Assembly (NCBI GenBank): GCA_004431415.1
Contig: QPMI01000005.1
Span: 868,001 to 932,000, forward strand
Direction: 5' to 3'
DNA length: 64,000 nucleotides
Source: Cyanophora paradoxa CCMP329
Taxonomy: Eukaryota; Plantae; Glaucophyta
Shown here: piece after piece, positions 24,462 to 49,778 of the stretch
Numbering within the stretch: the first letter of the stretch is position 1
Layout of the letters: each line of letters begins with the position of its first letter
The notes under the pieces: model-generated
Told to the model about the DNA's origin: nothing
What the model saw: the letters and a program-made list of their open reading frames with translations, nothing else
Database searches by the model: none
Translations under genes and position numbers: made by a program

Positions 24462-24666
24462 ATGGATTTCTTGCGAAAACTCATAGAGATGTTTAATCTC
24501 CACATTGTGAGCAATTGTCACAGTGGCTGCTGTGAAACCAAAGTCGAAATCGAATTCTCAGACACTGAAAGCCATGGATCAGGTGGTAGGAGATTATCCA
24601 CAGACTCGGTGGATTTCGAGGAGCATATTAAAACAGAGACAGTGAGGCGACGCTCTGTATCTTTCA
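24462..24666 (+). pseudogene. 5' part of a small outer-virus ORF interrupted by inner copy 1; continues at 36187-36215
   Basis: Removing the insert and one TSD gives ...TVRRRSVSF-TDPKLNLGN* (77 aa). Confidence 0.65.
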
Positions 24667-25070
24667 AGCTCAGCACTGCGCCGTGTCTCCAAAAAAATAC
24701 CCGCGAAAAAATCAAAAACAAATCAGAAAACAAACCATTCCCAGTAACCCAATCTTGAATATCAGTAAATCTCAGTAAGCCTCAGTAAGAAACATTGAAT
24801 TAATCGAAGTTATATCATAATCTCGATTAATTATATCTTATCGAAGTTATATCTTTTTTATGCGCCGTGTCTCCAAAACAATTCCCAAGAAAAACAAACC
24901 ATTCACAGTAACCCAATTCCAAATCTCACTAAATCTCAGTAAGCCTCAGTAACAAAAATCGAATTAATCGAAGTTATATCTTAAATCTTATTTATCGAAG
25001 TTATATCATAATCTCGATTAATTATATTTAATCGAAGTTATATCCTTTTCATCCGCCGTGTCTCCCATGA
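24667..25070 (+). repeat. Left TIR of inner copy 1 (404 bp)
   Basis: Reverse complement of 35778-36181; internal repeats CCGTGTCTCC x3 and multiple ATCGAAGTTATATC. Confidence 0.95.
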
Positions 25071-25071
25071 T

Positions 25072-26132
25072 TTAGCGTTTCGTTAAACCACTTCTCAAAT
25101 TGTATCTCCTCCGAATTACATTACTCCGATTGGGTTTTATGCCTTCTTTTGCTACCAATCGATTCACTTTATTCGTTTTATTAACCTGCTGAATCCGTTT
25201 TTGTGATGGTATCTTAATGATATCATCTTTATTCACCTTTTGCAATTCTTGTTTCTTAAATCTCCTCTTCACTTCTTTTGTTTCCTCACCATCATTATCT
25301 TCAAGCACTTTGAAACGATTCCTATCAGCCTTTGCAACAGTGTAGACCTTCTGACTGAATTGCGCACCTTCTTTTTCAAACAATCCCTTTGGTTGCAAAA
25401 CTCGAACTGTGTCTCCTGGTTTCACTTGATTAGTATCAGCCTCCTTTACACGATTGTTGTGAACAGTATCCCTCATGTAAATAAATAACTGTTTATCTTC
25501 ATTTGTATACACTGCATTTGGAGAGTCATTTTTCAATGCAGAATGGGGACTGCTATTATACAAGTCAATTACATCACTAAGTAGATCGATCCATTTCGTG
25601 GTTCCCTTTGCTGTCATCGATTTTCTGAGATACTGTTTGAAAGTCCTAGTGAACCTATCAATTATCCCCAGTTTATCTCCTACTGTGATGTGGTCATCCT
25701 TTGCCACATCTGTGTATAGCATTACACCATGTTCACTGCACCAATTTCGGTATACTGCCTGGGAAAACTCATTATCCCAGAGAGAGCATTAACTTTGCCT
25801 GCTTCTTGCTTGAACCTATTTAAAATGCTCGGGATCTCACTGCTGTTTTTAAAAGGATAAACAAATCCTTTGCGACTAAGTATGTCTACGAAACTAAGCA
25901 TTTTGAAAATGCCATTGTTGGCAGTCTGAAACCCTCTGAAATATGTTATATCGATTTGAAACGATCTAGGCTTTGCCACTATGCGAAGAAACGATTTGGG
26001 TTTCCTTGGTTTCTTGTAAATTTGCTGGAGTTCTGAGTTTTTGAACTTCTTTTTCAACTCTTTTTCATCAAAACTCACTTTTTCATTAATCAGTTTCTGC
26101 CTATACTTTTTGAATGATAATACACTATCCAT
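25072..26132 (-). CDS. rve-type integrase, inner copy 1 (one apparent frameshift near 25777)
   Basis: FQIDITYF, VDILSRKGF, LSG(D)NEF after adding one G, GIIDRFTRTFK, YNSSPHSAL, VKPGDTVRV. Confidence 0.88.
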
Positions 26133-29100
26133 TATTGGGCGGCACAGTTACACTTAATATGAGAGAGGAAACAATTTTTGGTAATGTGAGCCACAGCATT
26201 ATTAATTCGATCTACCGAAATATCTTCAAAGTCCATGGCATTGTAGCATCGCAGGCAATGCCCATACTGCTTCCCATATCGCTGCTTGATCCAATCCCAT
26301 GTGATGTAATCATGCTCATCGAATTGTCTGTTTGCTGCTCGGTCCTGATCCTTGTAAGTCGAAATCTTCTCGTTATTCTCTCTTTTCCACACTTTCCAGT
26401 GAGCCATTTCGAAATTATCATGGTAAATAACAACATCATCCAGCCTTGTGGTTCGAGTGAGAGCAACATATAGCCACTTCTTTGAAACAAATGGCGCCCC
26501 AGTTTCGAACACGACTACCCTGTTCCCTTTGCAGCGAATCGTATCACCTTGAACAACATGGCAGGTGTTTGCGTAAGCCAGGGCGAAATGTTTGACTGCA
26601 TCCCTGCTGAGAACAATCTCATCCTTCTTGTTGGCAATGTCAGCAATAATGAAACTGTCCTTTGAGAGCTTGACAATCTTGTAGACAAATCCATTATGAA
26701 CTATCTTCCCACCCTTTGCAATACGAGTCTTTGCAACAACTTTGATCCCGCCAGCATAAATGGAAACATTATCCCCGTAGTTCATTTTGTGAAGGGCTAG
26801 GTTCACCTCTGCACCCTTGCGGTTTGTATACACAATGCCTTTATCTGTCTTTGCCAATTCGTCCACAACCTTGAACCCGTACTTTGCTAGGACCTCACTT
26901 ACACTCAAACCTTTCTCGAATAAATCAATTCGAATTTGCTCAACCTTTCTGCGATCTTCCTCAGTCTCATGGCGCTTGTTCACTTGGAGTAACAATTCGT
27001 TGGGGAACAGGCGATGGAGGATATCAAGGTAATACTCATCTTGATCAACACTCATATCCTGAATGGGTGGGTTCTGATACGGGTCACCTGTGGCAATGTA
27101 TACCTTATCTGGGAACTGCTCATTCATGATGTGGTCCAGGGCTGCCAGTTCTCCAATCTTAAACTGACAGATCTCATCAATAACAATGCAATCAAATTCT
27201 ACCAAACCAGATGCATTCCCTCCTACGATTTCATCCATGTTCGACTCATCGATTTTGAGATGAAGGGCATCATAGATTGTCTTCACATTTTTCAATCCTT
27301 GCTCTTTCATTTCCTTCACTCGCTTGTTGGTCGGAACAATATAGAGGGGATTTTTGAAACGCTTCCCATATTCAACTGTCATGTGAGTCTTTCCAACTCC
27401 TGGAACTGATCCGAGAAGAACCCATCGTTTTTGTGTAGCCAGCAAATCACAAATCGCGGTTGTGTCATACTCATCAACCACAGAGTGTTTGGTATAACTG
27501 TAGTTCTCGATTTTCACAAAGTCAGTCGCTCTCTCAAACTTTCCGTAACGAATTCGTTTTGCCTCGAGGTCTTTCTTCTCACCTGAAAACTTTTTAGAAA
27601 AATTGGGGCAGCATTTCACACTGAATTTTCCAATATTCTCAAAGGCATTGCGATCGAATGACACTGGGGCAATGGGTTCATAAGCGATCCCATAAACACA
27701 ATCGGTGTTCAAAGCGAGTGGTCGGATCTGCTGTTTAGCGAGTTCGACACACTTCTCATACATACACATCCTCATAATTGACAAGAGGGTAGTGTACAAT
27801 GGCATGAAGCCATCAATGAGCTGCTTTTCTGCTACCTGATTGACATAGTAGATATGGGGTTCGGTCATCTCTTCCTCACACAGAACGAACTCTGTCTCCT
27901 CATAAGTGGCAAGAGTCTCACCAAAGAGGTAAATTTTAACCTCCCCTCCGTTCTGTTTCTGGAACTCGATCGCATCGTCTCTGTTGTGGAAAATGGTGGT
28001 TTTCACTCTGCTATTTCGTTGCTTTCCAGTTTGCCCAATTGCACTCACCAAGATCTGCTTCTTATCAACAGGATCGAGGTCGCTATCTAAGATTCGAGCA
28101 ACTGTGTTGCCTGCAAGGTTGGGAATGAGTTTGTAAGGTCGCAGAACCGCTTTGATGGAGATGTCATCCTTGAAATCCTCGAAATGCTTTTTGAGAACCA
28201 AACCAGGAACGACATTGTACTTGGAATCAATGATCATCCTCTTGTATCTGTTGTAGGTGTTTGCTTCGTACTCCTTTCCGTTCTTGTCTTTGGCTTTGAA
28301 AAAGTATTTGTCGTCCAGTTTCACGTAATAGAAGCTGTATTCCTCGATTTGCTCTGCATCTGTGATTGTCACACTCTTGAAGACATCGAACTTGCTGAGA
28401 ACAGGAACGAATTTGATCATCAAGGCTACAATGTAAGGGTATGCTTTGCACATATCGAACTCGTAAATATCTGTGTTATAGCGAATTTCATCAAAGGTCT
28501 CCTCATCCACATCAAAGAGACCACGAAGGGCAGTCTGCACTCCATTCTTGAATGCATTTATGGTTTGCTCATTGTAAGTACTCTTGTTGGAAGTGTCGAT
28601 TAGAGACCTATACATATCCAGATTTAGTTTCTCGAATTTATCTCTGTACTCAGCATTCTTGAAGCTAATCTCGAAAGCTGTTTCCACATCTGTATCGTTA
28701 CCAGGTGGGGTCACGACAACATCCTTATCGTCAATAGTGAAACGAATATGGGTTGCCTTTCCGATTTGGGAGAACCCAGGTTGGACCTGATAATTATGCA
28801 CCACAATGAACTCTCTGAGTAGTTCATCCAGTGAACCACCATAGCAGATTCGAATGCTCGATTGGTTCTTTGGATTGTCAGACCTGACAATTCTCAGAAT
28901 GTCATCGGGATTTGTGGCAAACTCCTTGAACCTTCTTTGCTTTATAATCTTGTAACGAGAACTGAGTGGAACATTGGTATCTTTTGGCTTGGAGCCATTG
29001 AAGGACTGTGTGAGAGCCTTAATATTGTGATTTAACAAATACATGTGACCATTCTCAATCTTCACATATGCAACAGAAGGGGTCAAGTGTGTGTTCCTGG

Positions 29101-30218
29101 TCTTGGGCAGGAAAGTCAGTTCAGGGACAGGGGTTCTGTCGTCCTTTCCAATTGTAACCATGCCTAGGCGCAGTGGGTCAAGAACCTTCTCCGAAATGGA
29201 CTTGAAAGAAATGCCCCAATCATCTCCTTCAACAGGGTCTCGCCCATTCACCATCTTAAAGAGTCCGTTGTAAGACCAATCGATTCGCTTGTATTTCCCT
29301 TTGGTCTTAGCCTTCTCAAACGCTCCTCCAAACCATTTGATGAGGACATCGAAAACACACTTCCCAACCTTGAATGAATCACCTTTCAAGAACATTTCCT
29401 TGAATGTGGTGGCTTGGGGTTCCCTTCGTTTTTAATGAAATTCGAAATAATCATTGGAGCGTTTGTATTGTCTCTGAGGACTTGTTCATTTCTTGGGATG
29501 TATTCTTCATTATCTGTCGTGATGACTCTTTCAATTGTCATAATATCGGGGTAGGTATCTTGCTCAATTAGTTTTAGGTAGCGGAAATCTTGATTGGTCG
29601 AGTTAAACTCAATAACTGCTGCAATAAATTCAGCAATGACAGTCCCCTCAACACATGGGAACGTATTGAAGGTGGATTGAACCAGACCGAGAGCATTCAG
29701 AAAAGCTGCCTTGGTACACTGGATACCAAAGGGGCGATTGTTCCGAAGCCTCTTCGATTCAATGTAGGTCACACCATTCTCAGTGACCCTGTTTGCATTT
29801 GCAGGGGCTTGTTCTCCCTCTTGCAACTCACGGAAGAGTCTCACATTCAGGGTGACCATGTTTCCAGGTGAGTTTTCAACAAACTCACGGAGGTTAGCAA
29901 TCATCTGCTGGAAAGGAGTCAAGCGCTTCCGCTCTCTCGCTTGCTCCGCTTTCTTGTTTTGCTTCTCAACATTCTTAGCGGCTCTCTCAGCCCTCTTCTC
30001 CTTCTTCTCCTGCTTGCGATACAACGAGGCTCTACGATACCTCTCAGTGTATCTCTGATATCAATCAACTTTGGAATTCTAATTGCTTTGAAAGTAAATT
30101 CTCTCAAGAAATAGATATCCTGCTCTCGGGTCAATTTGTCTTCTACTTTTGCTTGCATGTAGTAGCCAAGAATCTCATCCTGCAAATTTTTCGAAATTCG
30201 ATTACTTGGTCGAGGCAT
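26132..30218 (-). CDS. PolB-SF1 (RecD/PIF1-like) helicase-HNH-like fusion, inner copy 1 (frame breaks near 30022 and 29415)
   Basis: PolB motifs FDMCKAYP, KQILVSAIG, NTDC; helicase motifs GVGKT, IDE, GDPYQNPP, TCHVVQG, YVALTR; C-terminal CLRC..SVDRINN..H..NC..H..CN. Joining to the upstream ~280-aa ORF is inferred. Confidence 0.85.
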
Positions 30219-30459
30219 TTCTTTGTTCACTCTATTAATATATACCTACAAAAGTTTTCTTTAAATACTTTTATACTCGCGTCAAATTTTACCGACAAAA
30301 CCAAAAGTCTCCAACAAAATAAATTTAGTCGAGGGCATTCATAAAAATAACAAAGGGTTGGCTCGATCATCGAACTCTAAAAATAACAGAATGATTATAT
30401 TTGTGGTTCCAGCGCGTTTCCCACGGGTTTCTCAGAGCAGATCGCGCTGAGAAAAACGA

Positions 30460-30717
30460 TTAACAGAGATATTTCGATTTGCGACCACGGTTAGAATACG
30501 GGACACCATAGAGATACTTCACAAAGCAGACTGCATTGGAAGCATAGAGACGCTGGGAACTCTCAACGATCTTCATGGCTCTGTAACACTCATCAGTATG
30601 GTATAAGTCACGCATTTGCTTTGCAAATCTGGCATTGTACTTTTTCAAATATTCCTGACCTTTTTCAGTTTTACGATAACGATAAGTAGCACGCTTCTGA
30701 GCCTCACTGATTGGCAT
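30460..30717 (-). CDS. Small basic protein (85 aa), putative DNA-binding
   Basis: MPISEAQKRATYRYRKT...; identical ORF in copy 2. Confidence 0.7.
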   Translation of the reverse strand: MPISEAQKRATYRYRKTEKGQEYLKKYNARFAKQMRDLYHTDECYRAMKIVESSQRLYASNAVCFVKYLYGVPYSNRGRKSKYLC

Positions 30718-30814
30718 GTTGTCCTTTTCTACTCTCTTAATATATGTTAAGAAATCTTTAAGTAGTTTTTCTGTCTGTATATAGCGAATAAACTCCTGTC
30801 AAATTTTGGTCCGA

Positions 30815-30978
30815 TTGCAGAGCATCCAGTACGAAAGAAGATGCTGGAAAAATGATAAAGCCACCGATACCCAGAAGGTTCACTTGTCGGCTGCAAGTTT
30901 CTACCACTGAACCCGGTAGAACAGGTGATTTAAGTGATTTACCTATGGATATTTCACTTCGCTCTACAACGCCTCCAT
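30815..30978 (+). ncRNA. Candidate structured RNA with two loop-loop pseudoknots (also at ~44395-44560 in copy 2)
   Basis: Six adjoining helices plus two 6-bp loop-loop complementarities found by eye in an intergenic gap; G-U pairs favour the + strand. Confidence 0.4.
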
Positions 30979-31065
30979 AAAAATGAAGAAGTTTTGAGCC
31001 TACGGGATAGGATTGGTTACGTAGCGCTAACAATGTTTGAGAAATTATATTATTCAGATTGATCC

Positions 31066-31826
31066 TTAACGGCGATAACCGGGTCTTATACCAAGCTTGG
31101 CGAATCCAGAGACCATTGGGGCAGCATTTGGAATCGAGTTGACTGGATCAGCCTGCGAAGTGGCAACCGAAGGATCGACTTATTGAGAACCGGCAAATCC
31201 GTTTTGTTGGAGTCTTGATACTCAATGGTCTTTGCAATCAATTCTGTAGGTGAGTCTTTTGCCACATGAACAGGTTCGGGAATAACTTCATGGGTTACTT
31301 CTGGTTTCTTCTCAACCTTTTCCTTTGTGATTGGCTGTTCCTTGATCTTGTTTTCGTTTTTGGTCTCTGCTGCAATACCATCAACAAGACTCTTAGCATA
31401 CTGATATGTTACAGATTTCAGTCCACCAGTGGTTGAACGAATAAAGTAGCGGTTGCGATGGTCTTTCTCGGAATAGGTTGAGTAGAGTCGCTCACCACCA
31501 TCAAGCAGTTTCAGCAGTGTCGATGATGAGGCAACCTTGTCCTTTGTGGATGATTTGAACTGTCCTTTCTTGATTCCTCGTTTGGCTCCGGGCATGCGGT
31601 TCAGTGGGACTTGGTCAACAAGGGCATTATCATCATTACTGTTTTTCGTAGTGGCTTGGGTGTATTGGTTTCGTTCTTTATGGACTTCTTTATCGAGGTC
31701 ACCAGTTCCGTATGCAGCGATTCCTTTCGATTTCTTATACCAGTTCCTTCCAGTCTCACCATTGCCAACATCCGCTTCAGCGGCTGGTTTGGCTAAGAAA
31801 TTCTTGGGTTGAGTCTTGCGGGCCAT
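31066..31826 (-). CDS. Hypothetical basic protein (253 aa in copy 2; 1-nt frameshift here)
   Basis: Homologous to intact 44647-45408. Confidence 0.75.
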
Positions 31827-31862
31827 TTGTAATATTGAAACAAAATTATTCTACAGTATTTC

Positions 31863-32738
31863 CTATGACCGTGAGAACGGCAGGTAGAGTCCCTCCAACT
31901 CTTTTATGACATTCTTCAATGCTTTCTTTGTCAGATCTTTATCATCTTCAGTAATCAGTTCGAGAGTCATCGACCAATCCGTGGTAATATCGGTTTCAGC
32001 ACCATTCCAATATGTAAGACGAATTTTTAGCGTTTCAACTTCCACCAAACCATTTTGCTCATGCAATATCATGGAATTATTCGATGAATCGTATTTTAGT
32101 AGACTGCCTACCGTTTGGTCAATCTCAATTTTCGCAAGGGCTTTATCATCGCTGGTGTTCTTGCTTACATAGTTGCCTTTGAGTGGGTCAACATGAAGAA
32201 GGATGTAAGAATTGAACAGAAGATCGAGCGGTATAACACTGTCAATGTAGTAATTATAAGTATTTGCTCCAACTGTTACTGGCGAATCGAGCAGGGCAGA
32301 AGCATAACCATTTTCAGAACTGTCAGGTCTGCGATCTGGGAAACCAAGGAAGTTCGCTAAAATCCGACTTCCAAAGGTGAGGGTAAATGTTGCATCGCAC
32401 ATGAACCTTAGCAACATGGTAACAGGATCATAGGTAGTTCCTGCTGCACCATATGCCTGTGAAGCAAGTTTTGCATTTAGAAGATTAACCAAACTATCAG
32501 AGGTATATGTCCCTTTCGAAATAGTGTTATTCTTAGTTTTAATTACATCCCCAGCATCATAGGTTCCTGTAATCAAACTTCCATTCTCGCTGAGATTGTA
32601 AATGTTATTGAACATCTCGAAATTGGTCACTCGGCAGGCTCTCACATTTTGGATGGCATGGGGAATTTTGTAAGTGAAGTTTGTTGGGGTTCCATCATCT
32701 CGGTCCCTGGAATCAATATTGAGATAGTAACGCGTCAT
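31863..32738 (-). CDS. Minor capsid (penton) protein, inner copy 1 allele
   Basis: MTRYYLNIDSRDRDDGTPTNF..; C-terminal LKIRLTYWNG..DWSMTLEL. Confidence 0.85.
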   Translation of the reverse strand: MTRYYLNIDSRDRDDGTPTNFTYKIPHAIQNVRACRVTNFEMFNNIYNLSENGSLITGTYDAGDVIKTKNNTISKGTYTSDSLVNLLNAKLASQAYGAAGTTYDPVTMLLRFMCDATFTLTFGSRILANFLGFPDRRPDSSENGYASALLDSPVTVGANTYNYYIDSVIPLDLLFNSYILLHVDPLKGNYVSKNTSDDKALAKIEIDQTVGSLLKYDSSNNSMILHEQNGLVEVETLKIRLTYWNGAETDITTDWSMTLELITEDDKDLTKKALKNVIKELEGLYLPFSRS

Positions 32739-32790
32739 TCTGTTTAATAAAGCATTTTAAAAATTTCTTTTGGTATTTTAAACATAAGAG

Positions 32791-34011
32791 ATGGCACTCA
32801 CTGGAACTACCCTGAAGGAACTCCTCGTAACTCCCGGTTCCGATCAAATTTATCTTTCCCCTGGTCTCCAAATCGGAACCAACCCCAAATACAAACCATT
32901 CCTCGAGCAAGTTCGTCCCCGGGGCAACACTTTTGGCTTCAAGAATACCGCTTACTTTGATCTACCTCGCAAGCAACTCCTTGCTGGTGTTTCGCTCTAT
33001 TTCAAGATTGCCACTGGTGGTGGTGTAGCCTGCACCCTCCCAATGGTGGTTCTTCTTTTATTAATGAGGTCCGTTTCGTTCATGGTGGTTTCAAGTATAT
33101 TATCCCTGGTGATTGGATCACTGTAAACGCCCTGGTCGATAATGATCACGCTACCATGAGCAGCATGTATGCTTCTCTCGGTTACTTCAAAGAGACAGAT
33201 CGTGAAAGCACAGATGAAGCAATGGAATACATCGTTAGAATCCCGCTGCTTTCTGGAAGAAGCTTATTTCCCATTATGTACGCTAGCCGATATGCCAACA
33301 ATCGAGGTTGATTTCCGTGATGCTGCGATTGTCCAAGTTCCGGCTGGTGGATCTGTAACCTTTGCGGATTGCTCTCTGATCTGCCAATTCGTAAACATTG
33401 CTTCGGCTGAGGCTGAGACACTCCTTAAAATGGCGAACGAACAAGGTGGCATTCGCATCCGATCACAGAGGTCATTCACAAGAAGACCCGAGCGCTCAAA
33501 ACCGCTGATGCTGGTGAATCTGTTGAGGTTACACTCGCTAATGTTTCTGGTCTGGTTCACTCGATTCTGATGACTGTTCGAGAGGTGAACAAACTTAACA
33601 CCTACACTCACTCGGATTTCTGCGGTCATGAATCTGCTGTTAAGATTGATCAGTTCCAGATCTTCCACAACAATCGCTCCCTGGATATATCTAACAAACC
33701 CATTTCCGGTTTCCTCTCTGCTGTCAATCACATTCCTTCTCACTACAAGGGTGTTACTGTGGGCAATACCACGTACGGATTCGAGTCTGGAAATGTTTAC
33801 GGAATTGTTCTTTCCAAGTCTGGAAAAGATTCGCTTCGGAACTCGGTTATGGGTTACCAGGATTTCTTCAACAGCAGCTCGAGTTACATGGATCTCACTG
33901 TTTCCGGATGCACTGATGCCGCTCCTGTTCAGGTTGATATCTATGCCTCCGACACAATGTTATGGTACTTAATGGCTACAACATCTCTACCTGAAAGTCT
34001 CGAACTTCTAA
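32791..34011 (+). CDS. Major capsid protein, inner copy 1 (several 1-nt frameshifts)
   Basis: Collinear with intact 46385-47611; indels lie in C/G runs. Confidence 0.8.
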
Positions 34012-34091
34012 AGTTCTTTTCTTTTGTTAGTGTAGGAAGCGCAATTATTTGTAGGTGTGTACTTTATTTTGTTTTTTATCTTATTACTGTA

Positions 34092-38656: not shown

Positions 38657-38657
38657 T

Positions 38658-39716: not shown

Positions 39717-42700
39717 TATTGGGCGGCACAGTTACACTTAATATGAGAGAGGAAACAATTTTTGGTAATGTGAGCCACAGCATTATTAATTCGATCTACC
39801 GAAATATCTTCAAAGTCCATGGCATTGTAGCATCGCAGGCAATGCCCATACTGCTTCCATATCGCTGCTTGATCCAATCCATGTGATGTAATCATGCTCA
39901 TCGAATTGTCTGTTTGCTGCTCGGTCCTGATCCTTGTAAGTCGAAATCTTCTCGTTATTCTCTCTTTTCCACACTTTCCAGTGAGCCATTTCGAAATTAT
40001 CATGGTAAATAACAACATCATCCAGCCTTGTGGTTCGAGTGAGAGCAACATATAGCCACTTCTTTGAAACAAATGGCGCCCCAGTTTCGAACACGACTAC
40101 CCTGTTCCCTTTGCAGCGAATCGTATCACCTTGAACAACATGGCAGGTGTTTGCGTAAGCCAGGGCGAAATGTTTGACTGCATCCCTGCTGAGAACAATC
40201 TCATCCTTCTTGTTGGCAATGTCAGCAATAATGAAACTGTCCTTTGAGAGCTTGACAATCTTGTAGACAAATCCATTATGAACTATCTTCCCACCCTTTG
40301 CAATACGAGTCTTTGCAACAACTTTGATCCCGCCAGCATAAATGGAAACATTATCCCCGTAGTTCATTTTGTGAAGGGCTAGGTTCACCTCTGCACCCTT
40401 GCGGTTTGTATACACAATGCCTTTATCTGTCTTTGCCAATTCGTCCACAACCTTGAACCCGTACTTTGCTAGGACCTCACTTACACTCAAACCTTTCTCG
40501 AATAAATCAATTCGAATTTGCTCAACCTTTCTGCGATCTTCCTCAGTCTCATGGCGCTTGTTCACTTGGAGTAACAATTCGTTGGGGAACAGGCGATGGA
40601 GGATATCAAGGTAATACTCATCTTGATCAACACTCATATCCTGAATGGGTGGGTTCTGATACGGGTCACCTGTGGCAATGTATACCTTATCTGGGAACTG
40701 CTCATTCATGATGTGGTCCAGGGCTGCCAGTTCTCCAATCTTAAACTGACAGATCTCATCAATAACAATGCAATCAAATTCTACCAAACCAGATGCATTC
40801 CCTCCTACGATTTCATCCATGTTCGACTCATCGATTTTGAGATGAAGGGCATCATAGATTGTCTTCACATTTTTCAATCCTTGCTCTTTCATTTCCTTCA
40901 CTCGCTTGTTGGTCGGAACAATATAGAGGGGATTTTTGAAACGCTTCCCATATTCAACTGTCATGTGAGTCTTTCCAACTCCTGGAACTGATCCGAGAAG
41001 AACCCATCGTTTTTGTGTAGCCAGCAAATCACAAATCGCGGTTGTGTCATACTCATCAACCACAGAGTGTTTGGTATAACTGTAGTTCTCGATTTTCACA
41101 AAGTCAGTCGCTCTCTCAAACTTTCCGTAACGAATTCGTTTTGCCTCGAGGTCTTTCTTCTCACCTGAAAACTTTTTAGAAAAATTGGGGCAGCATTTCA
41201 CACTGAATTTTCCAATATTCTCAAAGGCATTGCGATCGAATGACACTGGGGCAATGGGTTCATAAGCGATCCCATAAACACAATCGGTGTTCAAAGCGAG
41301 TGGTCGGATCTGCTGTTTAGCGAGTTCGACACACTTCTCATACATACACATCCTCATAATTGACAAGAGGGTAGTGTACAATGGCATGAAGCCATCAATG
41401 AGCTGCTTTTCTGCTACCTGATTGACATAGTAGATATGGGGTTCGGTCATCTCTTCCTCACACAGAACGAACTCTGTCTCCTCATAAGTGGCAAGAGTCT
41501 CACCAAAGAGGTAAATTTTAACCTCCCCTCCGTTCTGTTTCTGGAACTCGATCGCATCGTCTCTGTTGTGGAAAATGGTGGTTTTCACTCTGCTATTTCG
41601 TTGCTTTCCAGTTTGCCCAATTGCACTCACCAAGATCTGCTTCTTATCAACAGGATCGAGGTCGCTATCTAAGATTCGAGCAACTGTGTTGCCTGCAAGG
41701 TTGGGAATGAGTTTGTAAGGTCGCAGAACCGCTTTGATGGAGATGTCATCCTTGAAATCCTCGAAATGCTTTTTGAGAACCAAACCAGGAACGACATTGT
41801 ACTTGGAATCAATGATCATCCTCTTGTATCTGTTGTAGGTGTTTGCTTCGTACTCCTTTCCGTTCTTGTCTTTGGCTTTGAAAAAGTATTTGTCGTCCAG
41901 TTTCACGTAATAGAAGCTGTATTCCTCGATTTGCTCTGCATCTGTGATTGTCACACTCTTGAAGACATCGAACTTGCTGAGAACAGGAACGAATTTGATC
42001 ATCAAGGCTACAATGTAAGGGTATGCTTTGCACATATCGAACTCGTAATATCTGTGTTATAGCGAATTTCATCAAAGGTCTCCTCATCCACATCAAAGAG
42101 ACCACGAAGGGCAGTCTGCACTCCATTCTTGAATGCATTTATGGTTTGCTCATTGTAAGTACTCTTGTTGGAAGTGTTGATTAGAGACCTATACATATCC
42201 AGATTTAGTTTCTCGAATTTATCTCTGTACTCAGCATTCTTGAAGCTAATCTCGAAAGCTGTTTCCACATCTGTATCGTTACCAGGTGGGGTCACGACAA
42301 CATCCTTATCGTCAATAGTGAAACGAATATGGGTTGCCTTTCCGATTTGGGAGAACCCAGGTTGGACCTGATAATTATGCACCACAATGAACTCTCTGAG
42401 TAGTTCATCCAGTGAACCACCATAGCAGATTCGAATGCTCGATTGGTTCTTTGGATTGTCAGACCTGACAATTCTCAGAATGTCATCGGGATTTGTGGCA
42501 AACTCCTTGAACCTTCTTTGCTTTATAATCTTGTAACGAGAACTGAGTGGAACATTGGTATCTTTTGGCTTGGAGCCATTGAAGGACTGTGTGAGAGCCT
42601 TAATATTGTGATTTAACAAATACATGTGACCATTCTCAATCTTCACATATGCAACAGAAGGGGTCAAGTGTGTGTTCCTGGTCTTGGGCAGGAAAGTCAG

Positions 42701-43800
42701 TTCAGGGACAGGGGTTCTGTCGTCCTTTCCAATTGTAACCATGCCTAGGCGCAGTGGGTCAAGAACCTTCTCCGAAATGGACTTGAAAGAAATGCCCCAA
42801 TCATCTCCTTCAACAGGGTCTCGCCCATTCACCATCTTAAAGAGTCCGTTGTAAGACCAATCGATTCGCTTGTATTTCCCTTTGGTCTTAGCCTTCTCAA
42901 ACGCTCCTCCAAACCATTTGATGAGGACATCGAAAACACACTTCCCAACCTTGAATGAATCACCTTTCAAGAACATTTCCTTGAATGTGGTGGCTTGGGG
43001 TTCCCTTCGTTTTTAATGAAATTCGAAATAATCATTGGAGCGTTTGTATTGTCTCTGAGGACTTGTTCATTTCTTGGGATGTATTCTTCATTATCTGTCG
43101 TGATGACTCTTTCAATTGTCATAATATCGGGGTAGGTATCTTGCTCAATTAGTTTTAGGTAGCGGAAATCTTGATTGGTCGAGTTAAACTCAATAACTGC
43201 TGCAATAAATTCAGCAATGACAGTCCCCTCAACACATGGGAACGTATTGAAGGTGGATTGAACCAGACCGAGAGCATTCAGAAAAGCTGCCTTGGTACAC
43301 TGGATACCAAAGGGGCGATTGTTCCGAAGCCTCTTCGATTCAATGTAGGTCACACCATTCTCAGTGACCCTGTTTGCATTTGCAGGGGCTTGTTCTCCCT
43401 CTTGCAACTCACGGAAGAGTCTCACATTCAGGGTGACCATGTTTCCAGGTGAGTTTTCAACAAACTCACGGAGGTTAGCAATCATCTGCTGGAAAGGAGT
43501 CAAGCGCTTCCGCTCTCTCGCTTGCTCCGCTTTCTTGTTTTGCTTCTCAACATTCTTAGCGGCTCTCTCAGCCCTCTTCTCCTTCTTCTCCTGCTTGCGA
43601 TACAAACGAGGCTCTACGATACCTCTCAGTGTATCTCTGATATCAATCAACTTTGGAATTCTAATTGCTTTGAAAGTAAATTCTCTCAAGAAATAGATAT
43701 CCTGCTCTCGGGTCAATTTGTCTTCTACTTTTGCTTGCATGTAGTAGCCAAGAATCTCATCCTGCAAATTTTTCGAAATTCGATTACTTGGTCGAGGCAT
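39716..43800 (-). CDS. PolB-SF1 helicase-HNH-like fusion, inner copy 2 (1-nt frameshifts)
   Basis: Near-identical to 26132-30218; the N-terminal ORF 42967-43800 is intact here. Confidence 0.85.
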
Positions 43801-44040
43801 TTCTTTGTTCACTCTATTAATATATACCTACAAAGTTTTCTTTAAATACTTTTATACTCGCGTCAAATTTTACCGACAAAACCAAAAGTCTCCAACAAAA
43901 TAAATTTAGTCGAGGGCATTCATAAAAATAACAAAGGGTTGGCTCGATCATCGAACTCTAAAAATAACAGAATGATTATATTTGTGGTTCCAGCGCGTTT
44001 CCCACGGGTTTCTCAGAGCAGATCGCGCTGAGAAAAACGA

Positions 44041-44298
44041 TTAACAGAGATATTTCGATTTGCGACCACGGTTAGAATACGGGACACCATAGAGATACTT
44101 CACAAAGCAGACTGCATTGGAAGCATAGAGACGCTGGGAACTCTCAACGATCTTCATGGCTCTGTAACACTCATCAGTATGGTATAAGTCACGCATTTGC
44201 TTTGCAAATCTGGCATTGTACTTTTTCAAATATTCCTGACCTTTTTCAGTTTTACGATAACGATAAGTAGCACGCTTCTGAGCCTCACTGATTGGCAT
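44041..44298 (-). CDS. Small basic protein (85 aa), inner copy 2
   Basis: Identical to 30460-30717. Confidence 0.7.
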   Translation of the reverse strand: MPISEAQKRATYRYRKTEKGQEYLKKYNARFAKQMRDLYHTDECYRAMKIVESSQRLYASNAVCFVKYLYGVPYSNRGRKSKYLC

Positions 44299-44646
44299 GT
44301 TGTCCTTTTCTACTCTCTTAATATATGTTAAGAAATCTTTAAGTAGTTTTTCTGTCTGTATATAGCGAATAAACTCCTGTCAAATTTTGGTCCCGATTGC
44401 AGAGCATCCAGTACGAAAGAAGATGCTGGAAAATGATAAAGCCACCGATACCCAGAAGGTTCACTTGTCGGCTGCAAGTTTCTACCACTGAACCCGGTAG
44501 AACAGGTGATTAAAGTGATTTACCTATGGATATTTCACTTCGCTCTACAACGCCTCCATAAAAATGAAGAAGTTTTGAGCCTACGGGATAGGATTGGTTA
44601 CGTAGCGCTAACAATGTTTGAGAAATTATATTATTCAGATTGATCC

Positions 44647-45408
44647 TTAACGGCGATAACCGGGTCTTATACCAAGCTTGGCGAATCCAGAGACCATTGG
44701 GGCAGCATTTGGAATCGAGTTGACTGGATCAGCCTGCGAAGTGGCAACCCGAAGGATCGACTTATTGAGAACCGGCAAATCCGTTTTGTTGGAGTCTTGA
44801 TACTCAATGGTCTTTGCAATCAATTCTGTAGGTGAGTCTTTTGCCACATGAACAGGTTCGGGAATAACTTCATGGGTTACTTCTGGTTTCTTCTCAACCT
44901 TTTCCTTTGTGATTGGCTGTTCCTTGATCTTGTTTTCGTTTTTGGTCTCTGCTGCAATACCATCAACAAGACTCTTAGCATACTGATATGTTACAGATTT
45001 CAGTCCACCAGTGGTTGAACGAATAAAGTAGCGGTTGCGATGGTCTTTCTCGGAATAGGTTGAGTAGAGTCGCTCACCACCATCAAGCAGTTTCAGCAGT
45101 GTCGATGATGAGGCAACCTTGTCCTTTGTGGATGATTTGAACTGTCCTTTCTTGATTCCTCGTTTGGCTCCGGGCATGCGGTTCAGTGGGACTTGGTCAA
45201 CAAGGGCATTATCATCATTACTGTTTTTCGTAGTGGCTTGGGTGAATTGGTTTCGTTCTTTATGGACTTCCTTTTCGAGGTCACCAGTTCCGTATGCAGC
45301 GAGTCCTTTCGATTTCTTATACCAGTTCCTTCCATTCTCACCATTGCCAACATCCGCTTCAGCGGCTGGTTTGGCTAAGAAATTCTTGGGTTGAGTCTTG
45401 CGAGCCAT
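44647..45408 (-). CDS. Hypothetical basic protein (253 aa), inner copy 2
   Basis: Intact ORF; few, mostly conservative substitutions versus copy 1. Confidence 0.8.
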   Translation of the reverse strand: MARKTQPKNFLAKPAAEADVGNGENGRNWYKKSKGLAAYGTGDLEKEVHKERNQFTQATTKNSNDDNALVDQVPLNRMPGAKRGIKKGQFKSSTKDKVASSSTLLKLLDGGERLYSTYSEKDHRNRYFIRSTTGGLKSVTYQYAKSLVDGIAAETKNENKIKEQPITKEKVEKKPEVTHEVIPEPVHVAKDSPTELIAKTIEYQDSNKTDLPVLNKSILRVATSQADPVNSIPNAAPMVSGFAKLGIRPGYRR

Positions 45409-45444
45409 TTGTAATATTGAAACAAATTTATTCTACAGTATTTC

Positions 45445-46332
45445 CTATGACCGTGAGAACGGCAGGTAGAGTCCCTCCAACTCTTTTATGACATTCTTCA
45501 ATGCTTTTTTCGTCAGATCTTTATCATCTTCAGTAATCAGTTCAAGAGTCATCGACCAGTCGGTAGTAATGTCTGCTGTGGCTCCATTCCAGTAAGAAAG
45601 TCTCACATCTAGAGTCTCAACCTCAACCAAGCCATTCTGCTCGTGAACGATCATGGAATTATTCGATGAATCATATTTTAATAGACTGCCAACCGTTTGG
45701 TCAATCTCAATTTTCGCGATAGCATTGTTATCTCGTTTGTTATTGCTCACATATCTTCCTTTCAGTGGATCAACATGAAGAAGCAAATAGGAATTAAATA
45801 GTAGATCTAATGGCATTTCACTATCAATGTAGTGAGCATAAGTAAAGGCTCCAACTGTGACATTAGATGATAGAGGACTCGATTGGTACAGTGTGTTAGC
45901 ATTTTCAAAACCACAGAAATTGGCTAAGAGTTGAGTGTTCATAGTGATTGAGAATGGAACCTCACACATGAACCTTAGAAGCAATGTTGTGGGATCATAG
46001 GTTACATAGAAATGGCGAGTGTAAGTTCCGCCACCCGCTTGATTATAGGGCTGGGATCCAATGCGAGCGATCAGATAATTCACCAGTGAATCCGGTGTAT
46101 ATGCACCTCGGAGGACTTCGTTGTTTCTATTCTTTGGGTTCCCAGCATTATCGAGTGTTTGTGTGGTGAGGGTTCCTACTTCAGAGAGGTTGTAAAGATT
46201 GTGAAACATCTCAAAGTTCGTTACTCGACAGGCTCTGACCTTTTGGATCGCATAAGGGAGTCTGTATGTGAAATTAGTTGGGGTTCCATCCGATCGGTCC
46301 CTGGAATCAATATTGAGATAGTAACGCGTCAT
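45445..46332 (-). CDS. Minor capsid (penton) protein, inner copy 2 allele
   Basis: MTRYYLNIDSRDRSDGTPTNF..; central region differs strongly from copy 1. Confidence 0.85.
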   Translation of the reverse strand: MTRYYLNIDSRDRSDGTPTNFTYRLPYAIQKVRACRVTNFEMFHNLYNLSEVGTLTTQTLDNAGNPKNRNNEVLRGAYTPDSLVNYLIARIGSQPYNQAGGGTYTRHFYVTYDPTTLLLRFMCEVPFSITMNTQLLANFCGFENANTLYQSSPLSSNVTVGAFTYAHYIDSEMPLDLLFNSYLLLHVDPLKGRYVSNNKRDNNAIAKIEIDQTVGSLLKYDSSNNSMIVHEQNGLVEVETLDVRLSYWNGATADITTDWSMTLELITEDDKDLTKKALKNVIKELEGLYLPFSRS

Positions 46333-46384
46333 TCTGTTTAATAAAGCATTTTAAAAATTTCTTTTGGTATTTTAAACATAAGAG

Positions 46385-47611
46385 ATGGCACTCACTGGAA
46401 CTACCCTGAAGGAACTCCTCGTAACTCCCGGTTCCGATCAAATTTATCTTTCCCCTGGTCTCCAAATCGGAACCAACCCCAAATACAAACCATTCCTCGA
46501 GCAAGTTCGTCCCCGAGGCAACACTTTTGGCTTCAAGAATACCGCTTACTTTGATCTACCTCGCAAGCAACTCCTTGCTGGTGTTTCCCTATATTTCAAG
46601 ATTGCCACTGGTGGTGAGGTAGCCTGCACCCTCCCCAATGGTGGTTCTTCCTTCATCAATGAGGTCCGCTTTGTTCATGGTGGTTTCAAGTATATCATCC
46701 CTGGTGATTGGATCACTGTAAACGCTCTGATCGACAATGATCACGCTACCATGGGCAGTATGTTTGCTTCTCTCGGTTACTTCAAAGAGACAGATCGTGA
46801 AAGCACAGATGAAGCAATGGAATACATCGTTAGAATCCCCGCTGCTTTCTGGGAAGAAGCTTATTTCCCATTATGTACGCTAGCCGATATGCCAACAATC
46901 GAGGTTGATTTCCGTGATGCTGCGATTGTCCAAGTTCCGGCTGGTGGATCTGTAACCTTTGCGGATTGCTCTCTGATCTGCCAATTCGTAAACATTGCTT
47001 CGGCTGAGGCTGAGACACTCCTTAAAATGGCGAACGAACAAGGTGGCATTCGCATCCCGATCACAGAGGTCATTCACAAGAAGACCCGAGCGCTCAAAAC
47101 CGCTGATGCTGGTGAATCTGTTGAGGTTACACTCGCTAATGTTTCTGGTCTGGTTCACTCGATTCTGATGACTGTTCGAGAGGTGAACAAACTTAACACC
47201 TACACTCACTCGGATTTCTGCGGTCATGAATCTGCTGTTAAGATTGATCAGTTCCAGATCTTCCACAACAATCGCTCCCTGGATATATCTAACAAACCCA
47301 TTTCCGGTTTCCTCTCTGCTGTCAATCACATTCCTTCTCACTACAAGGGTGTTACTGTGGGCAATACCACGTACGGATTCGAGTCTGGAAATGTTTACGG
47401 AATTGTTCTTTCCAAGTCTGGAAAAGATTCGCTTCGGAACTCGGTTATGGGTTACCAGGATTTCTTCAACAGCAGCTCGAGTTACATGGATCTCACTGTT
47501 TCCGGATGCACTGATGCCGCTCCTGTTCAGGTTGATATCTATGCCCTCCGACACAATGTTATGGTACTTAATGGCTACAACATCTCTACCCTGAAAGTCT
47601 CGAACTTCTAA
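46385..47611 (+). CDS. Major capsid protein (double jelly-roll), inner copy 2
   Basis: Intact 408-aa beta-rich ORF between penton and ATPase; homologous to the outer MCP. Confidence 0.82.
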   Translation: MALTGTTLKELLVTPGSDQIYLSPGLQIGTNPKYKPFLEQVRPRGNTFGFKNTAYFDLPRKQLLAGVSLYFKIATGGEVACTLPNGGSSFINEVRFVHGGFKYIIPGDWITVNALIDNDHATMGSMFASLGYFKETDRESTDEAMEYIVRIPAAFWEEAYFPLCTLADMPTIEVDFRDAAIVQVPAGGSVTFADCSLICQFVNIASAEAETLLKMANEQGGIRIPITEVIHKKTRALKTADAGESVEVTLANVSGLVHSILMTVREVNKLNTYTHSDFCGHESAVKIDQFQIFHNNRSLDISNKPISGFLSAVNHIPSHYKGVTVGNTTYGFESGNVYGIVLSKSGKDSLRNSVMGYQDFFNSSSSYMDLTVSGCTDAAPVQVDIYALRHNVMVLNGYNISTLKVSNF

Positions 47612-47691
47612 AGTTCTTTTCTTTTGTTAGTGTAGGAAGCGCAATTATTTGTAGGTGTGTACTTTATTTTGTTTTTTATCTTATTACTGTA

Positions 47692-48450
47692 ATGGATAAC
47701 ACAGTAAATCTTGATGATATTCCGGAGTTCGATCCGAGTAAGACGGTTCGAATCCCGACAAGAATTTTGAATGTTGGTCGCTCCAATACAGGTAAGACAA
47801 TGTTCACAAAATACTTACTTTACGAGCTTCGTGACAAGATCGATCAAATCGTTATATTTAGTTCAACAGCTTTTACTGGACAATTCAATGACATCACCCA
47901 TCCCGATAACATCTATGAAGAGTGGGATGATAACATTGTTTTGAGATTGATCAGTATGCAAAAGAAACAAATTGAGAATAACGAAAAGCGAAATAACCTA
48001 GTTATCATACTCGATGACATGATAGGTTCAAATTTGGATATGCATAATTCGGCTGTGTTATCTAAATTAGTAACGAGTGGAAGACATTATTCAATCTCGG
48101 TAATCTTTAATGTTCAGCGTTTGTGTTCTATTTCTACTACCATTCGTCGCAATGTGGAGTTCGTTGTATTTTTCAATATACTTGGGAACGAGAAAGAGTT
48201 CAATTGCGCCTTTGATGAGTACAATGGTGGAATGGATAAGAAGACCTACAAGGAATTGCATAGACTATGGGGTTATAATTACCAAACTGTCATAGCTAGC
48301 CTGCAAGGTTATGATATCAAGACCTATACTGATAGAGCAGTACTCACTGATGATGATATAAAGGGCTTTAAGAAGTTTGTGAAGAGAAAAGCAATTAAAA
48401 GGAGTCAGATGGCTCGGATTCAGCGAGAAATGACCACAATCAGTGTGTAA
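47692..48450 (+). CDS. A32-like packaging ATPase, inner copy 2
   Basis: GRSNTGKT, IILDD, SGRHYSIS. Confidence 0.92.
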   Translation: MDNTVNLDDIPEFDPSKTVRIPTRILNVGRSNTGKTMFTKYLLYELRDKIDQIVIFSSTAFTGQFNDITHPDNIYEEWDDNIVLRLISMQKKQIENNEKRNNLVIILDDMIGSNLDMHNSAVLSKLVTSGRHYSISVIFNVQRLCSISTTIRRNVEFVVFFNILGNEKEFNCAFDEYNGGMDKKTYKELHRLWGYNYQTVIASLQGYDIKTYTDRAVLTDDDIKGFKKFVKRKAIKRSQMARIQREMTTISV

Positions 48451-48514
48451 AAGGTCGATTTCTGAAGAATATTGTATGATAAGGTAGCTTGAAATACTAA
48501 GAAAATAGCATAGT

Positions 48515-48660
48515 TGCGTAGAGCTTTCATAGCGCTTCAAAACGCTATGCAGAACGTTGCGATTTGATGATCTGGTGATGAGATACAAGCGTTTGAAGAT
48601 GCCGATAATCGATTTACCGAAACTTCGGTGAAACGTGAGCGAAACTTGAACCGTGAGATC
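48515..48660. other. Conserved non-coding element shared by inner and outer viruses
   Basis: 41-nt core 48565-48605 matches the reverse complement of 57147-57187 at 40/41; also present at ~34970-35002. Confidence 0.8.
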
Positions 48661-49368
48661 ATATACCCTACTATGGTTTATTCCCCGGGTTTTCATGGCG
48701 CATTTAATGGCGCATTTAATGGCGCATTTAATGGCGCATTTTATGGCGCATTTTATGGCGCATTTTATGGCGCATTTGATGAAAAGTCCCTACTCTGTGG
48801 CATGAACCAATCAGAAGCCAGCAAATTTAAAATTAATATATGAGGTATTATCTGAGATATAATCTGAGGTATTATCTGAGATATAATCTGAGGTATTATC
48901 TGAGGTATTATATGAGATGTTATCTGTGATGTAAACCTGGGGAGAAGTTGAAGGGGGATACATTGAAAGTCAGTGAGCCAATCAGATTGCGTCACACATA
49001 TATACATATACATCATGACAATATACACATCGCCGTGATCGTCATGATCTCCCGAATAAGCCGGTGTGTCATATATATCAGATACATATACATCATCATC
49101 ATGACGTCATATATGAATATATATCACATATACACAAATTGATATGTTATAGGTTTGACTATAAATCGATTTCCTATGATATATATGATATATATTACAG
49201 TGATATATTGACGTATATACGATTCAAAAACAATTAAAATTCTATTGTTTTTATTGTCGTTTCTATTGTTGTTTCTAGTGTAACAAATACAGTAAAAAAT
49301 CGTTCAAAAAATACAGTAAAAAATGAGAGGTTTTTCTTTCGAGGTTTTAACTAAACTTACTTAGTTAT

Positions 49369-49772
49369 TCATGGGAGACCCGGCGGATAAAAAGGATATA
49401 ACTTCGATTAAATATAATTAATCGAGATAATGATATAACTTCGATAAATAAGATTTAAGATATAACTTCGATAAATTCGATTTTTGTTACTGAGGCTTAC
49501 TGAGATTTAGTGAGATTTGGAATTGGGTTACTGTGAATGGTTTGTTTTTCTTGGGAATTGTTTTGGAGACACGGCGCATAAAAAAGATATAACTTCGATA
49601 AGATATAATTAATCGAGATTATGATATAACTTCGATTAATTCAATGTTTCTTACTGAGGCTTACTGAGATTTACTGATATTCAAGATTGGGTTACTGGGA
49701 ATGGTTTGTTTTCTGATTTGTTTTTGATTTTTTCGCGGGTATTTTTTTGGAGACACGGCGCAGTGCTGAGCT
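49369..49772 (-). repeat. Right TIR of inner copy 2
   Basis: Inverted match to 38254-38656. Confidence 0.95.
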
Positions 49773-49778
49773 GATATT

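What the first reader, a model, noticed from the sequence alone, without database searches (positions are those of the whole stretch)
24662..49778. Virus within a virus within a gene: a minimal PLV integrated twice, independently, into another endogenous PLV
Seen: two ~11.5-kb elements with 404-bp TIRs, different TSDs (TTTCA and GATATT) and the same orientation. They are only 2072 bp apart in outer-virus sequence and each interrupts an outer ORF; none lies in the 17.8 kb of host DNA. The two target sites share no sequence. Inference: the inner virus preferentially integrates into the outer virus, by tethering or during co-replication. It would then be a capsid-encoding hyperparasite of a Polinton-like virus. 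A neutral safe-haven explanation remains possible.
Basis: partly seen in the sequence, partly recalled or inferred. Interest (0 to 1): 0.92.

Follow-up and report, generated by a model that had tools for sequence, protein, structure and literature searches.

The report
Mini-virus nested twice in algal provirus
Two copies of a small (11.5 kb) capsid-encoding DNA virus sit inside a larger integrated virus in what is likely an alga, but the same small virus also sits at other places in the genome, so this is likely viruses piling up where they are tolerated, a pattern already reported, and likely not a dedicated parasite of the larger virus.

Summary
Anatomy confirmed: E1 (24667-36181, 5-bp target duplication) and E2 (38254-49772, 6-bp) have 404-bp terminal inverted repeats and lie 2,072 bp apart inside an outer Polinton-like virus. 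Public contigs hold uninterrupted versions of both sites. The inner element has the Tlr1-type gene set: rve integrase, polymerase-SF1-helicase fusion, double jelly-roll capsid, A32 ATPase. By contig depth it has roughly 15-21 copies, the outer family 18-35.

Strict targeting is not supported. In run X10, 5 of 8 listed contigs join the inner terminus to long low-depth DNA outside the conserved outer family, one flank 73% GC. One joint suggests the reverse nesting, outer inside inner. Most inner ends, including E2's own junction, are unresolved in contigs, so a partial preference for viral or AT-rich DNA stays open.

Virus-in-virus nesting is already described in Halocafeteria (bioRxiv 10.64898/2026.07.28.741278), and this scan noted it on another piece of this genome (e1-10595630). 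Best reading: sequential insertions into a tolerated AT-rich viral island (0.6). New leads: small size, a shared 88-bp non-coding block, and a foamy-virus-like [YF]NLR tail on both integrases.

The parts
7053..17781 (+). Host multi-exon gene region (IPT/TIG repeats, beta-helix, membrane segments). The last frame is open up to the virus junction, so the outer virus likely interrupts it
   Evidence: Pfam TIG and Beta_helix; frame open to 17781; 55.7% GC
17782..17866 (.). Left terminus of the outer virus: perfect 28-bp-arm palindrome with GCGAAGC repeats in the loop of the minus strand
   Evidence: z -12 and -13. A second host version at equal depth matches 17734-17781 over 48 letters, which fits an end at this boundary (inference)
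17782..24666 (.). Outer virus, left part: likely minor capsid 19427-20359(-), untested ORF 20388-21398, major capsid 21453-22826, A32 ATPase 22889-23671, ORF 23700-24434, first 68 codons of a 77-codon ORF from 24462
24662..24666 (+). E1 target-site duplication, left copy (TTTCA); right copy 36182-36186
   Evidence: empty-site joint with 5 letters fitting either side
24667..36181 (.). Inner element E1, 11,515 bp; TIRs 24667-25070 and 35778-36181 (16 substitutions apart)
25072..26132 (-). Inner rve integrase. Split by a 1-nt frameshift in the window that is likely an assembly error; ends RRRYNLRSGLTKR; third catalytic position reads D where the outer enzyme has E
   Evidence: Pfam rve_3 weak, E 0.003; 29% identical to the outer integrase, E 1e-14; family contigs differ by one gap here
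26132..29395 (-). Inner 1,087-aa polymerase-palm / SF1 helicase / HNH-like fusion (Tlr1-like helicase)
   Evidence: AAA_19, Viral_helicase1; RecD2 E 4e-10; palm-like motifs at residues 314, 446, 562 read by eye; Atlas neighbours with SF1+HNH
31863..32738 (-). Inner likely minor capsid protein, variable between copies (E2 copy 45445-46332, 70% identical)
   Evidence: function inferred from position and homology to the outer ORF, no family hit
32791..34850 (+). E1 major capsid and A32 ATPase genes; 1-nt gaps here are filled in family contigs
   Evidence: table 4
34909..35002 (-). Non-coding block shared with the outer virus (also E2 48518-48605 and outer 57147-57234, 83% identical)
   Evidence: no common ORF, no fold signal, no Rfam match
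36182..38253 (+). 2,072-bp outer spacer: end of the 77-codon ORF, 75-aa ORF, primase (Prim-Pol) and D5_N part of the primase-helicase
38248..38253 (+). E2 target-site duplication, left copy (GATATT); right copy 49773-49778
   Evidence: empty-site contig
38254..49772 (.). Inner element E2, 11,519 bp; TIRs 38254-38656 and 49369-49772 (4 substitutions apart)
46385..47611 (+). Inner major capsid protein, 408 aa, predicted double jelly-roll
   Evidence: AlphaFold2 with 7 sequences, pLDDT 68, pTM 0.76; Foldseek PBCV-1 capsid E 7e-18, TM 0.66; Atlas
47692..48450 (+). Inner A32-type packaging ATPase
   Evidence: Pox_A32 E 7e-16
49779..64000 (+). Outer virus, right part, running off the window: helicase half of the primase-helicase, family-B polymerase with endonuclease VII insert 51326-54613, rve integrase 54779-56197 ending RFNLRSGQRK, patatin/F5-8 57412-58551(-), fibre-like genes from 58990

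Best explanation
Two copies of an 11.5-kb Polinton-like virus, a multi-copy family that carries its own integrase, replicase and capsid genes, are inserted 2 kb apart in one integrated copy of a larger Polinton-like virus, likely because AT-rich resident viral DNA is a tolerated landing place and likely not because the small virus targets this partner. SHOWN: two separate integrase-type insertions (different 5- and 6-bp duplications, empty sites in sister copies); both families are multi-copy; other inner ends lie outside the conserved outer family. INFERRED, in order: (1) the outer virus integrated into a host membrane-protein gene; (2) inner genomes, copied by the polymerase-helicase fusion from their terminal repeats, were pasted in by their own rve integrase with little sequence preference; (3) both integrases may be tethered to nucleosomes in general by a C-terminal [YF]NLR tail like the foamy-virus chromatin-binding sequence; (4) insertions into a redundant provirus cost the host nothing and persist, whereas hits in working host genes are purged; (5) this outer copy is likely disabled (primase-helicase split, 23 kb added) while sister copies remain whole at these sites.
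For: Foreign flanks: in X10, 5 of the 8 listed records (10 laid) join the inner terminus to contigs of 14,017, 15,389, 1,348, 627 and 417 bp at depth 116, 124, 221, 81 and 99, against about 3,050 for the outer family. The 3 readable flanks do not match the window with up to 3 mismatches; one has 22 of 30 G+C, the other two 8 and 9 of 30 (counted). An X17 contig carries 191 foreign letters before the terminus. Reverse nesting: joint 17867->27304 in 2 of 3 DNA runs at about single-locus depth (58, 93). Copy ratios are similar in runs of 2012 and 2024 (inner 15-21, outer 18-35 times the host contig), as expected for integrated copies. Inner and outer have the same GC content (40.4-42.4% against host 55.7%). 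Precedent: 5 PLVs and 9 virophages nested in other viral elements in Halocafeteria, described as hotspots where viruses 'land where they are tolerated'.
Against: Two copies within 2,072 bp are unlikely under uniform insertion (P about 0.006) and still uncommon if insertions were confined to 5-10 Mb of viral DNA (0.05-0.11). Two of 17 copies in the outer family has P 0.001-0.014 under uniform insertion; these figures ignore that the window was picked for this feature. Long junction contigs account for only 14% of terminal depth, so most inner ends are unresolved and could lie in the outer family. E2's own junction was also missing from X10's contigs. The reverse-nesting joint has a short side of only 25 letters. 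Inner and outer share an 88-bp non-coding block, a hint of shared control or contact. The nucleosome-tether role of the [YF]NLR tail is untested. Selection against host-gene insertions was not tested, and the outer virus itself sits in a host gene.
Confidence: 0.6

Rival explanations
1. Active preference: the inner virus integrates preferentially into the outer virus, by tethering or while both replicate in the same compartment, and would travel or persist with it.
For: Tight clustering; shared 88-bp non-coding block; about 86% of terminal depth has no long junction contig and could lie in multi-copy DNA. Precedents for element-specific preference: Ngaro type 1 retrotransposons, 91% inside EMALEs (PMC8547959), and Sputnik 2 integrating into Lentille virus (PMC6723459).
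Against: At least 5 termini lie outside the conserved outer family. An outer end appears inside an inner gene. No inner-terminus-to-outer joint was listed over 7.7 kb of outer DNA in 3 DNA runs, where about 5-10 would be expected if half to all copies were there; this test is weak because such connectors can be dropped. The inner element has a full gene set and the capsids are 23% identical. Adding 23 kb would likely exceed the outer capsid's capacity (inference).
Confidence: 0.2
2. One burst or a local hop: both insertions arose in one activation event at an open locus, or one copy seeded the other nearby.
For: E1 and E2 differ at 2 of 6,976 aligned sites over the left 7 kb and lie 2 kb apart in the same orientation.
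Against: They differ by 21% in the minor-capsid block and 3-4% in the right arm, so neither is a straight copy of the other. The left 7 kb is nearly invariant across the whole family (long contigs with 0-3 other letters at family depth), so identity there says nothing about locality.
Confidence: 0.1
3. Assembly chimera: E1 and E2 are real insertions but in two different outer copies, joined through the multi-copy 2-kb spacer, or E1's arms come from two family members.
For: Both families are multi-copy. The window has many 1-nt errors (table 4). E1's TIRs differ at 16 sites. No native junction was seen in contigs.
Against: Each element has matching duplications on both sides, and the outer sequence is continuous across each site as in the empty-site contigs. 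A 2-kb spacer is easily spanned by long reads (own knowledge).
Confidence: 0.1

Closest known systems
Nested PLVs and virophages of Halocafeteria seosinensis (bioRxiv 10.64898/2026.07.28.741278; sections 5 and 8 and passages read)
   Same: Complete capsid-encoding elements with TIRs and TSDs inside other viral elements (5 PLVs, 9 virophages); viral DNA called a hotspot for further insertions; palindromic termini in some subtypes.
   Different: Here two members of one family hit one outer copy 2 kb apart; the inner element is 11.5 kb against a mean of 23.6 kb; the host is likely a glaucophyte; a hint of reciprocal nesting between the two families.
Tlr1-type PLVs with pPolB-S1H fusion (PMC11161782; passages read)
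   Same: rve integrase plus a large protein with palm motifs (first Asp of motif C replaced), SF1 helicase and C-terminal HNH, together with a capsid module.
   Different: Very compact. The capsid has only distant relatives (best 28% identity, 5 hits among 1.84 billion representatives). vOTU and terminal-protein domains were not tested.
Ngaro retrotransposons in Cafeteria EMALE virophages (PMC8547959; passages read)
   Same: A mobile element repeatedly found inside an endogenous virus.
   Different: Ngaros are retrotransposons with a measured preference (91% for type 1); here the guest is a capsid-encoding DNA virus and no preference is shown.
Sputnik 2 provirophage in Lentille virus (review PMC6723459; passages read)
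   Same: A capsid-encoding virus integrated into another virus's genome.
   Different: The host there is a free giant virus on whose factory the virophage depends; here both are small proviruses in a cell chromosome and no dependence is shown.
Tandem and mosaic polisuviruses (bioRxiv 10.64898/2026.10.13.758929; passages read)
   Same: Adjacent integration of related viruses, proposed as a route to module exchange; E1 and E2 are block mosaics of each other.
   Different: Tandem rather than nested in the passage read.

Membership tests
Polinton-like virus (inner element) | [quoted passage not shown] | tested here: met
   predicted fold matches PBCV-1 and EhV capsids, TM about 0.66
Polinton-like virus (inner element) | A32/FtsK packaging ATPase | tested here: met
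   Pox_A32 E 7e-16
Polinton-like virus (inner element) | [quoted passage not shown] | tested here: inconclusive
   No family hit; homologous to an outer ORF next to the capsid gene (23%, E 2e-11); not folded
Polinton-like virus (inner element) | Linear genome with terminal inverted repeats and target-site duplication | tested here: met
Polinton-like virus (inner element) | Capsid phylogeny within a named PLV class or cluster | not tested
   Only 5 distant homologues were found; no reference capsid set was at hand
Polinton-like virus (inner element) | Size 14-40 kb as quoted in the abstract of PMC12220804 | tested here: not met
   11.5 kb; a descriptive range rather than a strict criterion
Tlr1-type PLV | rve integrase plus palm-SF1 helicase(-HNH) fusion in place of a full pPolB | tested here: met
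   palm motifs recognised by eye only, no profile or structure hit for the palm
Tlr1-type PLV | vOTU and terminal-protein domains in the fusion | not tested
Virophage (Virophaviricetes) | Virophage-type capsid and maturation protease | tested here: not met
   No protease family hit among the inner ORFs scanned; virophage capsids rank below NCLDV-type ones
Dedicated hyperparasite of the outer virus | Insertions confined to, or strongly enriched in, the outer family | tested here: inconclusive
   Exclusivity not met; enrichment not measurable, no genome held and most junctions unresolved
Dedicated hyperparasite of the outer virus | Dependence on, or cost to, outer virus replication | not testable with these tools
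   Needs induction experiments; the inner element has its own replication, integration and capsid genes
Polinton / PLV (outer element) | Capsid module, family-B polymerase, rve integrase | tested here: met
   polymerase motifs by eye, no profile hit for the polymerase core
Polinton / PLV (outer element) | Matching right terminus and target-site duplication; Ulp1-type protease of true Polintons | not testable with these tools
   The right end lies beyond 64000; no protease hit in the 23.2 kb visible

The most novel reading that the evidence does not exclude
An unusually small (11.5 kb) Tlr1-type Polinton-like virus is switched on together with a larger Polinton-like virus through a shared 88-bp cis-element and integrates preferentially into resident or co-replicating PLV DNA. 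The two families insert into each other's replicase genes, a mutual-inactivation contest inside the host genome. Both integrases carry a foamy-virus-like [YF]NLR tail that would tether them to the nucleosome acidic patch.
Probability: 0.15. Interest if true: 0.7.

Novelty: new member of a known kind. Interest (0 to 1): 0.33.

Why it matters
As it stands this is a clean, base-resolved example of a reported pattern: viral islands in protist genomes grow by nesting, which disables old proviruses and brings capsid and replication modules side by side. It adds an 11.5-kb capsid-encoding family, below the 14-40 kb range quoted for PLVs, in a culturable host with many public runs, so integration-site choice of a PLV can be mapped directly. 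If targeting or the nucleosome-tether motif were shown, it would give a mechanism for how these viruses choose sites, which my searches did not find described.

Tried and rejected
No whole genome is held, so the genome-wide map was not possible. The terminus pattern gave 0 matches in metagenome contigs and 0 in viral contigs. The inner capsid and the polymerase-helicase gave no hits in the word-indexed protein search. The capsid alignment was too divergent for a locus search, and the inner ATPase and outer integrase found no loci in viral contigs, so relatives' genome sizes and integrase tails were not checked. A single-sequence fold of the capsid failed (pLDDT 31). PDB sequence searches for both polymerases gave nothing useful. 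The shared 88-bp block has no common ORF, no stable fold (z -1.3 to +0.7) and no Rfam match. No RNA holder was listed; X17 is only guessed to be RNA and its depths were not used for expression. The absence of further inner-to-outer joints is treated as weak, because E2's own junction is also absent from X10's contigs. The mixed consensus of the 417- and 627-bp flanks (agreement 0.62) was not used. 'Same orientation' is a one-in-two chance and was given no weight. Earlier-finding searches by inner TIR, capsid and replicase sequence found no related stretch, and a word search found none. Supplements of the bioRxiv preprints were not seen; they may list nested pairs or element sizes.
Full report
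OBSERVATION. The anatomy is as described. The 24-nt terminus occurs four times in the window and never in 100 shuffles, defining E1 (24667-36181, 11,515 bp) and E2 (38254-49772, 11,519 bp) in the same orientation, with TIRs of about 404 bp. E1 is flanked by TTTCA and E2 by GATATT; 5-6 bp is the length given for mavirus and Polintons (PMC8547959, passage). The spacer is 2,072 bp. By frame arithmetic E1 cuts a 77-codon outer ORF nine codons before its stop, and E2 cuts the outer primase-helicase in frame between its D5_N and P-loop parts. The outer virus starts at 17782 with a perfect 28-bp-arm palindrome and runs off the window; 23.2 kb of it are visible. The host frame is open up to 17781 in a multi-exon TIG/beta-helix/membrane gene region, so the outer virus likely interrupts a host gene.

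E1 VERSUS E2. They are block mosaics: 2 substitutions in 6,976 sites over the left 7 kb, 21% in the minor-capsid block, 1% across the capsid gene and the start of the ATPase, and 3-4% in the right arm. E1's two TIRs differ at 16 sites, E2's at 4. The many 1-nt gaps that break genes are filled in family contigs (table 4) and are likely assembly errors; this was shown for the family, not for each copy.

WHAT THE ELEMENTS ARE. Inner: an rve integrase (29% identical to the outer one); a 1,087-aa protein with palm-like motifs, SF1 helicase and an HNH-like end, matching the Tlr1-like pPolB-S1H fusion, in which the first Asp of motif C is replaced (PMC11161782, passages); a 408-aa capsid predicted as a double jelly-roll; an A32 ATPase; and a likely minor capsid. 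The capsid has 5 distant relatives among 1.84 billion representatives and is 23% identical to the outer capsid. Outer: capsid module, primase-D5 helicase, family-B polymerase (motifs by eye), rve integrase, patatin and fibre-like genes. The only homologue found for the outer capsid is a Cyanophora paradoxa protein at 59% identity, and earlier unreviewed notes place this genome in that alga, so the host is likely a glaucophyte.

COPY NUMBER AND EMPTY SITES. Of 24 runs listed, 16 hold about 70% of the sampled words; I laid 4 of them. Relative to the host contig next to the insertion (depth 67, 108, 46 in X1, X10, X14), inner contigs stand at 15-21 times and outer contigs at 18-35 times. Depth is only a rough copy measure, but the inner ratio is the same in runs of 2012 and 2024, as expected for integrated copies. 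Uninterrupted outer copies exist at both sites: joint 24661->36182 (depth 283 in X10, with a variant in X14) and a 1,257-bp contig at depth 3,053 across the E2 site. A second host version at equal depth matches 17734-17781 over exactly 48 letters, which fits an allele or paralogue without the outer virus (inference).

IS THE OUTER VIRUS TARGETED? No genome is held, so I laid X10's contigs on 80 bases around E2's right end. Of 10 records laid, 8 were listed. Five join the terminus to foreign DNA: 14,017 bp (depth 116; terminus 7 nt short), 15,389 bp (124), 1,348 bp (221), 627 bp (81) and 417 bp (99). At such depths these are not the conserved outer family (about 3,050), and the three readable flanks do not match the window. 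One flank has 22 of 30 G+C and looks like host DNA; two have 8 and 9 of 30 and may be other low-copy viral DNA (inference). An X17 contig also carries 191 foreign letters before the terminus. So the family is not confined to the outer virus. One search also lists a joint from the outer terminal palindrome to position 27304, inside the inner replicase gene, in 2 of 3 DNA runs at about single-locus depth. The letter at the joint fits a direct junction, but its short side is 25 letters, so reverse nesting is a lead rather than a proof. Against my reading: the four long junction contigs with a full terminus make up only 14% of terminal depth, and E2's own junction is absent from X10's contigs (depth beyond 49778 equals the empty-site contig alone). 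Either the assembler drops low-depth connectors or that culture lacks E2. The lack of other inner-to-outer joints over 7.7 kb (about 5-10 expected if half to all copies were there) is therefore weak evidence. Clustering is real: P about 0.006 for a pair within 2,072 bp under uniform insertion over 100 Mb, 0.05-0.11 if insertions survive mainly in 5-10 Mb of viral DNA, and 0.49 if confined to the outer family. The genome size (from 95-123 million contig letters in the 2024 runs) and the viral share are assumptions, and the window was selected for this feature. The absence from 17.8 kb of host DNA carries no information (0.003 expected).

MECHANISM. Most likely sequential, self-catalysed insertion with little sequence preference, followed by survival in redundant AT-rich viral DNA (0.6). 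Both integrases, although only 29% identical, end in [YF]NLRS within five residues of the stop. In a six-frame scan 11 sites match [YF]xLR[SP], and only the three integrase ends read [YF]NLR. The foamy-virus Gag chromatin-binding sequence GGYNLRPR binds the nucleosome acidic patch through this Tyr and Arg (PMC12125541, passages). A general nucleosome tether would favour chromosomal targets over a specific viral partner; this is a resemblance, not a test, and one search found no paper linking it to Polinton integrases. The strongest hints for a closer tie between the two viruses are the clustering and the 88-bp non-coding block at 83% identity, which has no common ORF, fold or Rfam match. Rivals: active preference 0.2, one burst or local hop 0.1, assembly chimera 0.1.

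COMPARISON AND VERDICT. Nesting of complete PLVs and virophages within each other is in print for Halocafeteria seosinensis (5 PLVs, 9 virophages; viral DNA called a hotspot where viruses 'land where they are tolerated'; bioRxiv 10.64898/2026.07.28.741278, sections 5 and 8 and passages). Retrotransposons nested in PLVs or virophages are reported in PMC8547959, PMC12220804 and PMC12747079 (passages), and a virophage inside a giant virus in PMC6723459 (passages). This scan noted another nested PLV pair on a different piece of this genome (e1-10595630, not checked by me). The finding is a new member of a known kind. Distinctive points are the double hit, the 11.5-kb size (below the 14-40 kb in the abstract of PMC12220804; I did not establish a size record), the possible reciprocity and the integrase tail. 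Interest 0.33.

Noticed in passing
window 25072-25104 (-), 38658-38690 (-), 56168-56197 (+): Both integrases end in a [YF]NLRS motif resembling the foamy-virus Gag nucleosome-binding sequence; a possible chromatin tether in PLV integrases.
   Followed up: partly
window 17782-17866: The outer virus ends in a perfect 28-bp-arm palindrome with three GCGAAGC units in the loop of the minus strand, like the hairpin ends noted elsewhere in this genome.
   Followed up: partly
window 17867 -> 27304 (joint): Outer-family terminus joined to the inner replicase gene in X1 and X10: possible reciprocal nesting at another locus.
   Followed up: partly
window 34909-35002, 48518-48605, 57147-57234: 88-bp non-coding block shared by inner and outer viruses (83%); in the inner family the DNA right after it varies between copies (joints from 35002).
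   Followed up: partly
window 31863-32738 versus 45445-46332: The likely minor capsid gene is only 70% identical between two otherwise near-identical copies, with differences in the middle; looks like allele exchange of a surface protein.
   Followed up: partly
window 24680, 24864, 25055: The inner TIR is built of internal repeats, with GCCGTGTCTCC three times at about 185-190 bp spacing.
   Followed up: no
window 18549-18964 and 50776-50937: Mirror-image blocks of a short TGTGACGCC word lie near the outer left end and again after the primase-helicase gene, as in earlier notes on helicase-matched origins.
   Followed up: no
window 17320-17781: A second host version at equal depth differs over 413 bp and matches up to the virus boundary: likely an allele or paralogue without the outer virus.
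   Followed up: partly
window 17782-64000: CpG is depleted in the viruses (observed/expected 0.45-0.76 by segment) but not in host DNA (1.23).
   Followed up: no
window 57412-58900 (-): The patatin/F5-8 gene appears frameshifted near its start and is AT-richer in look than its neighbours; three fibre-like paralogues follow from 58990.
   Followed up: no
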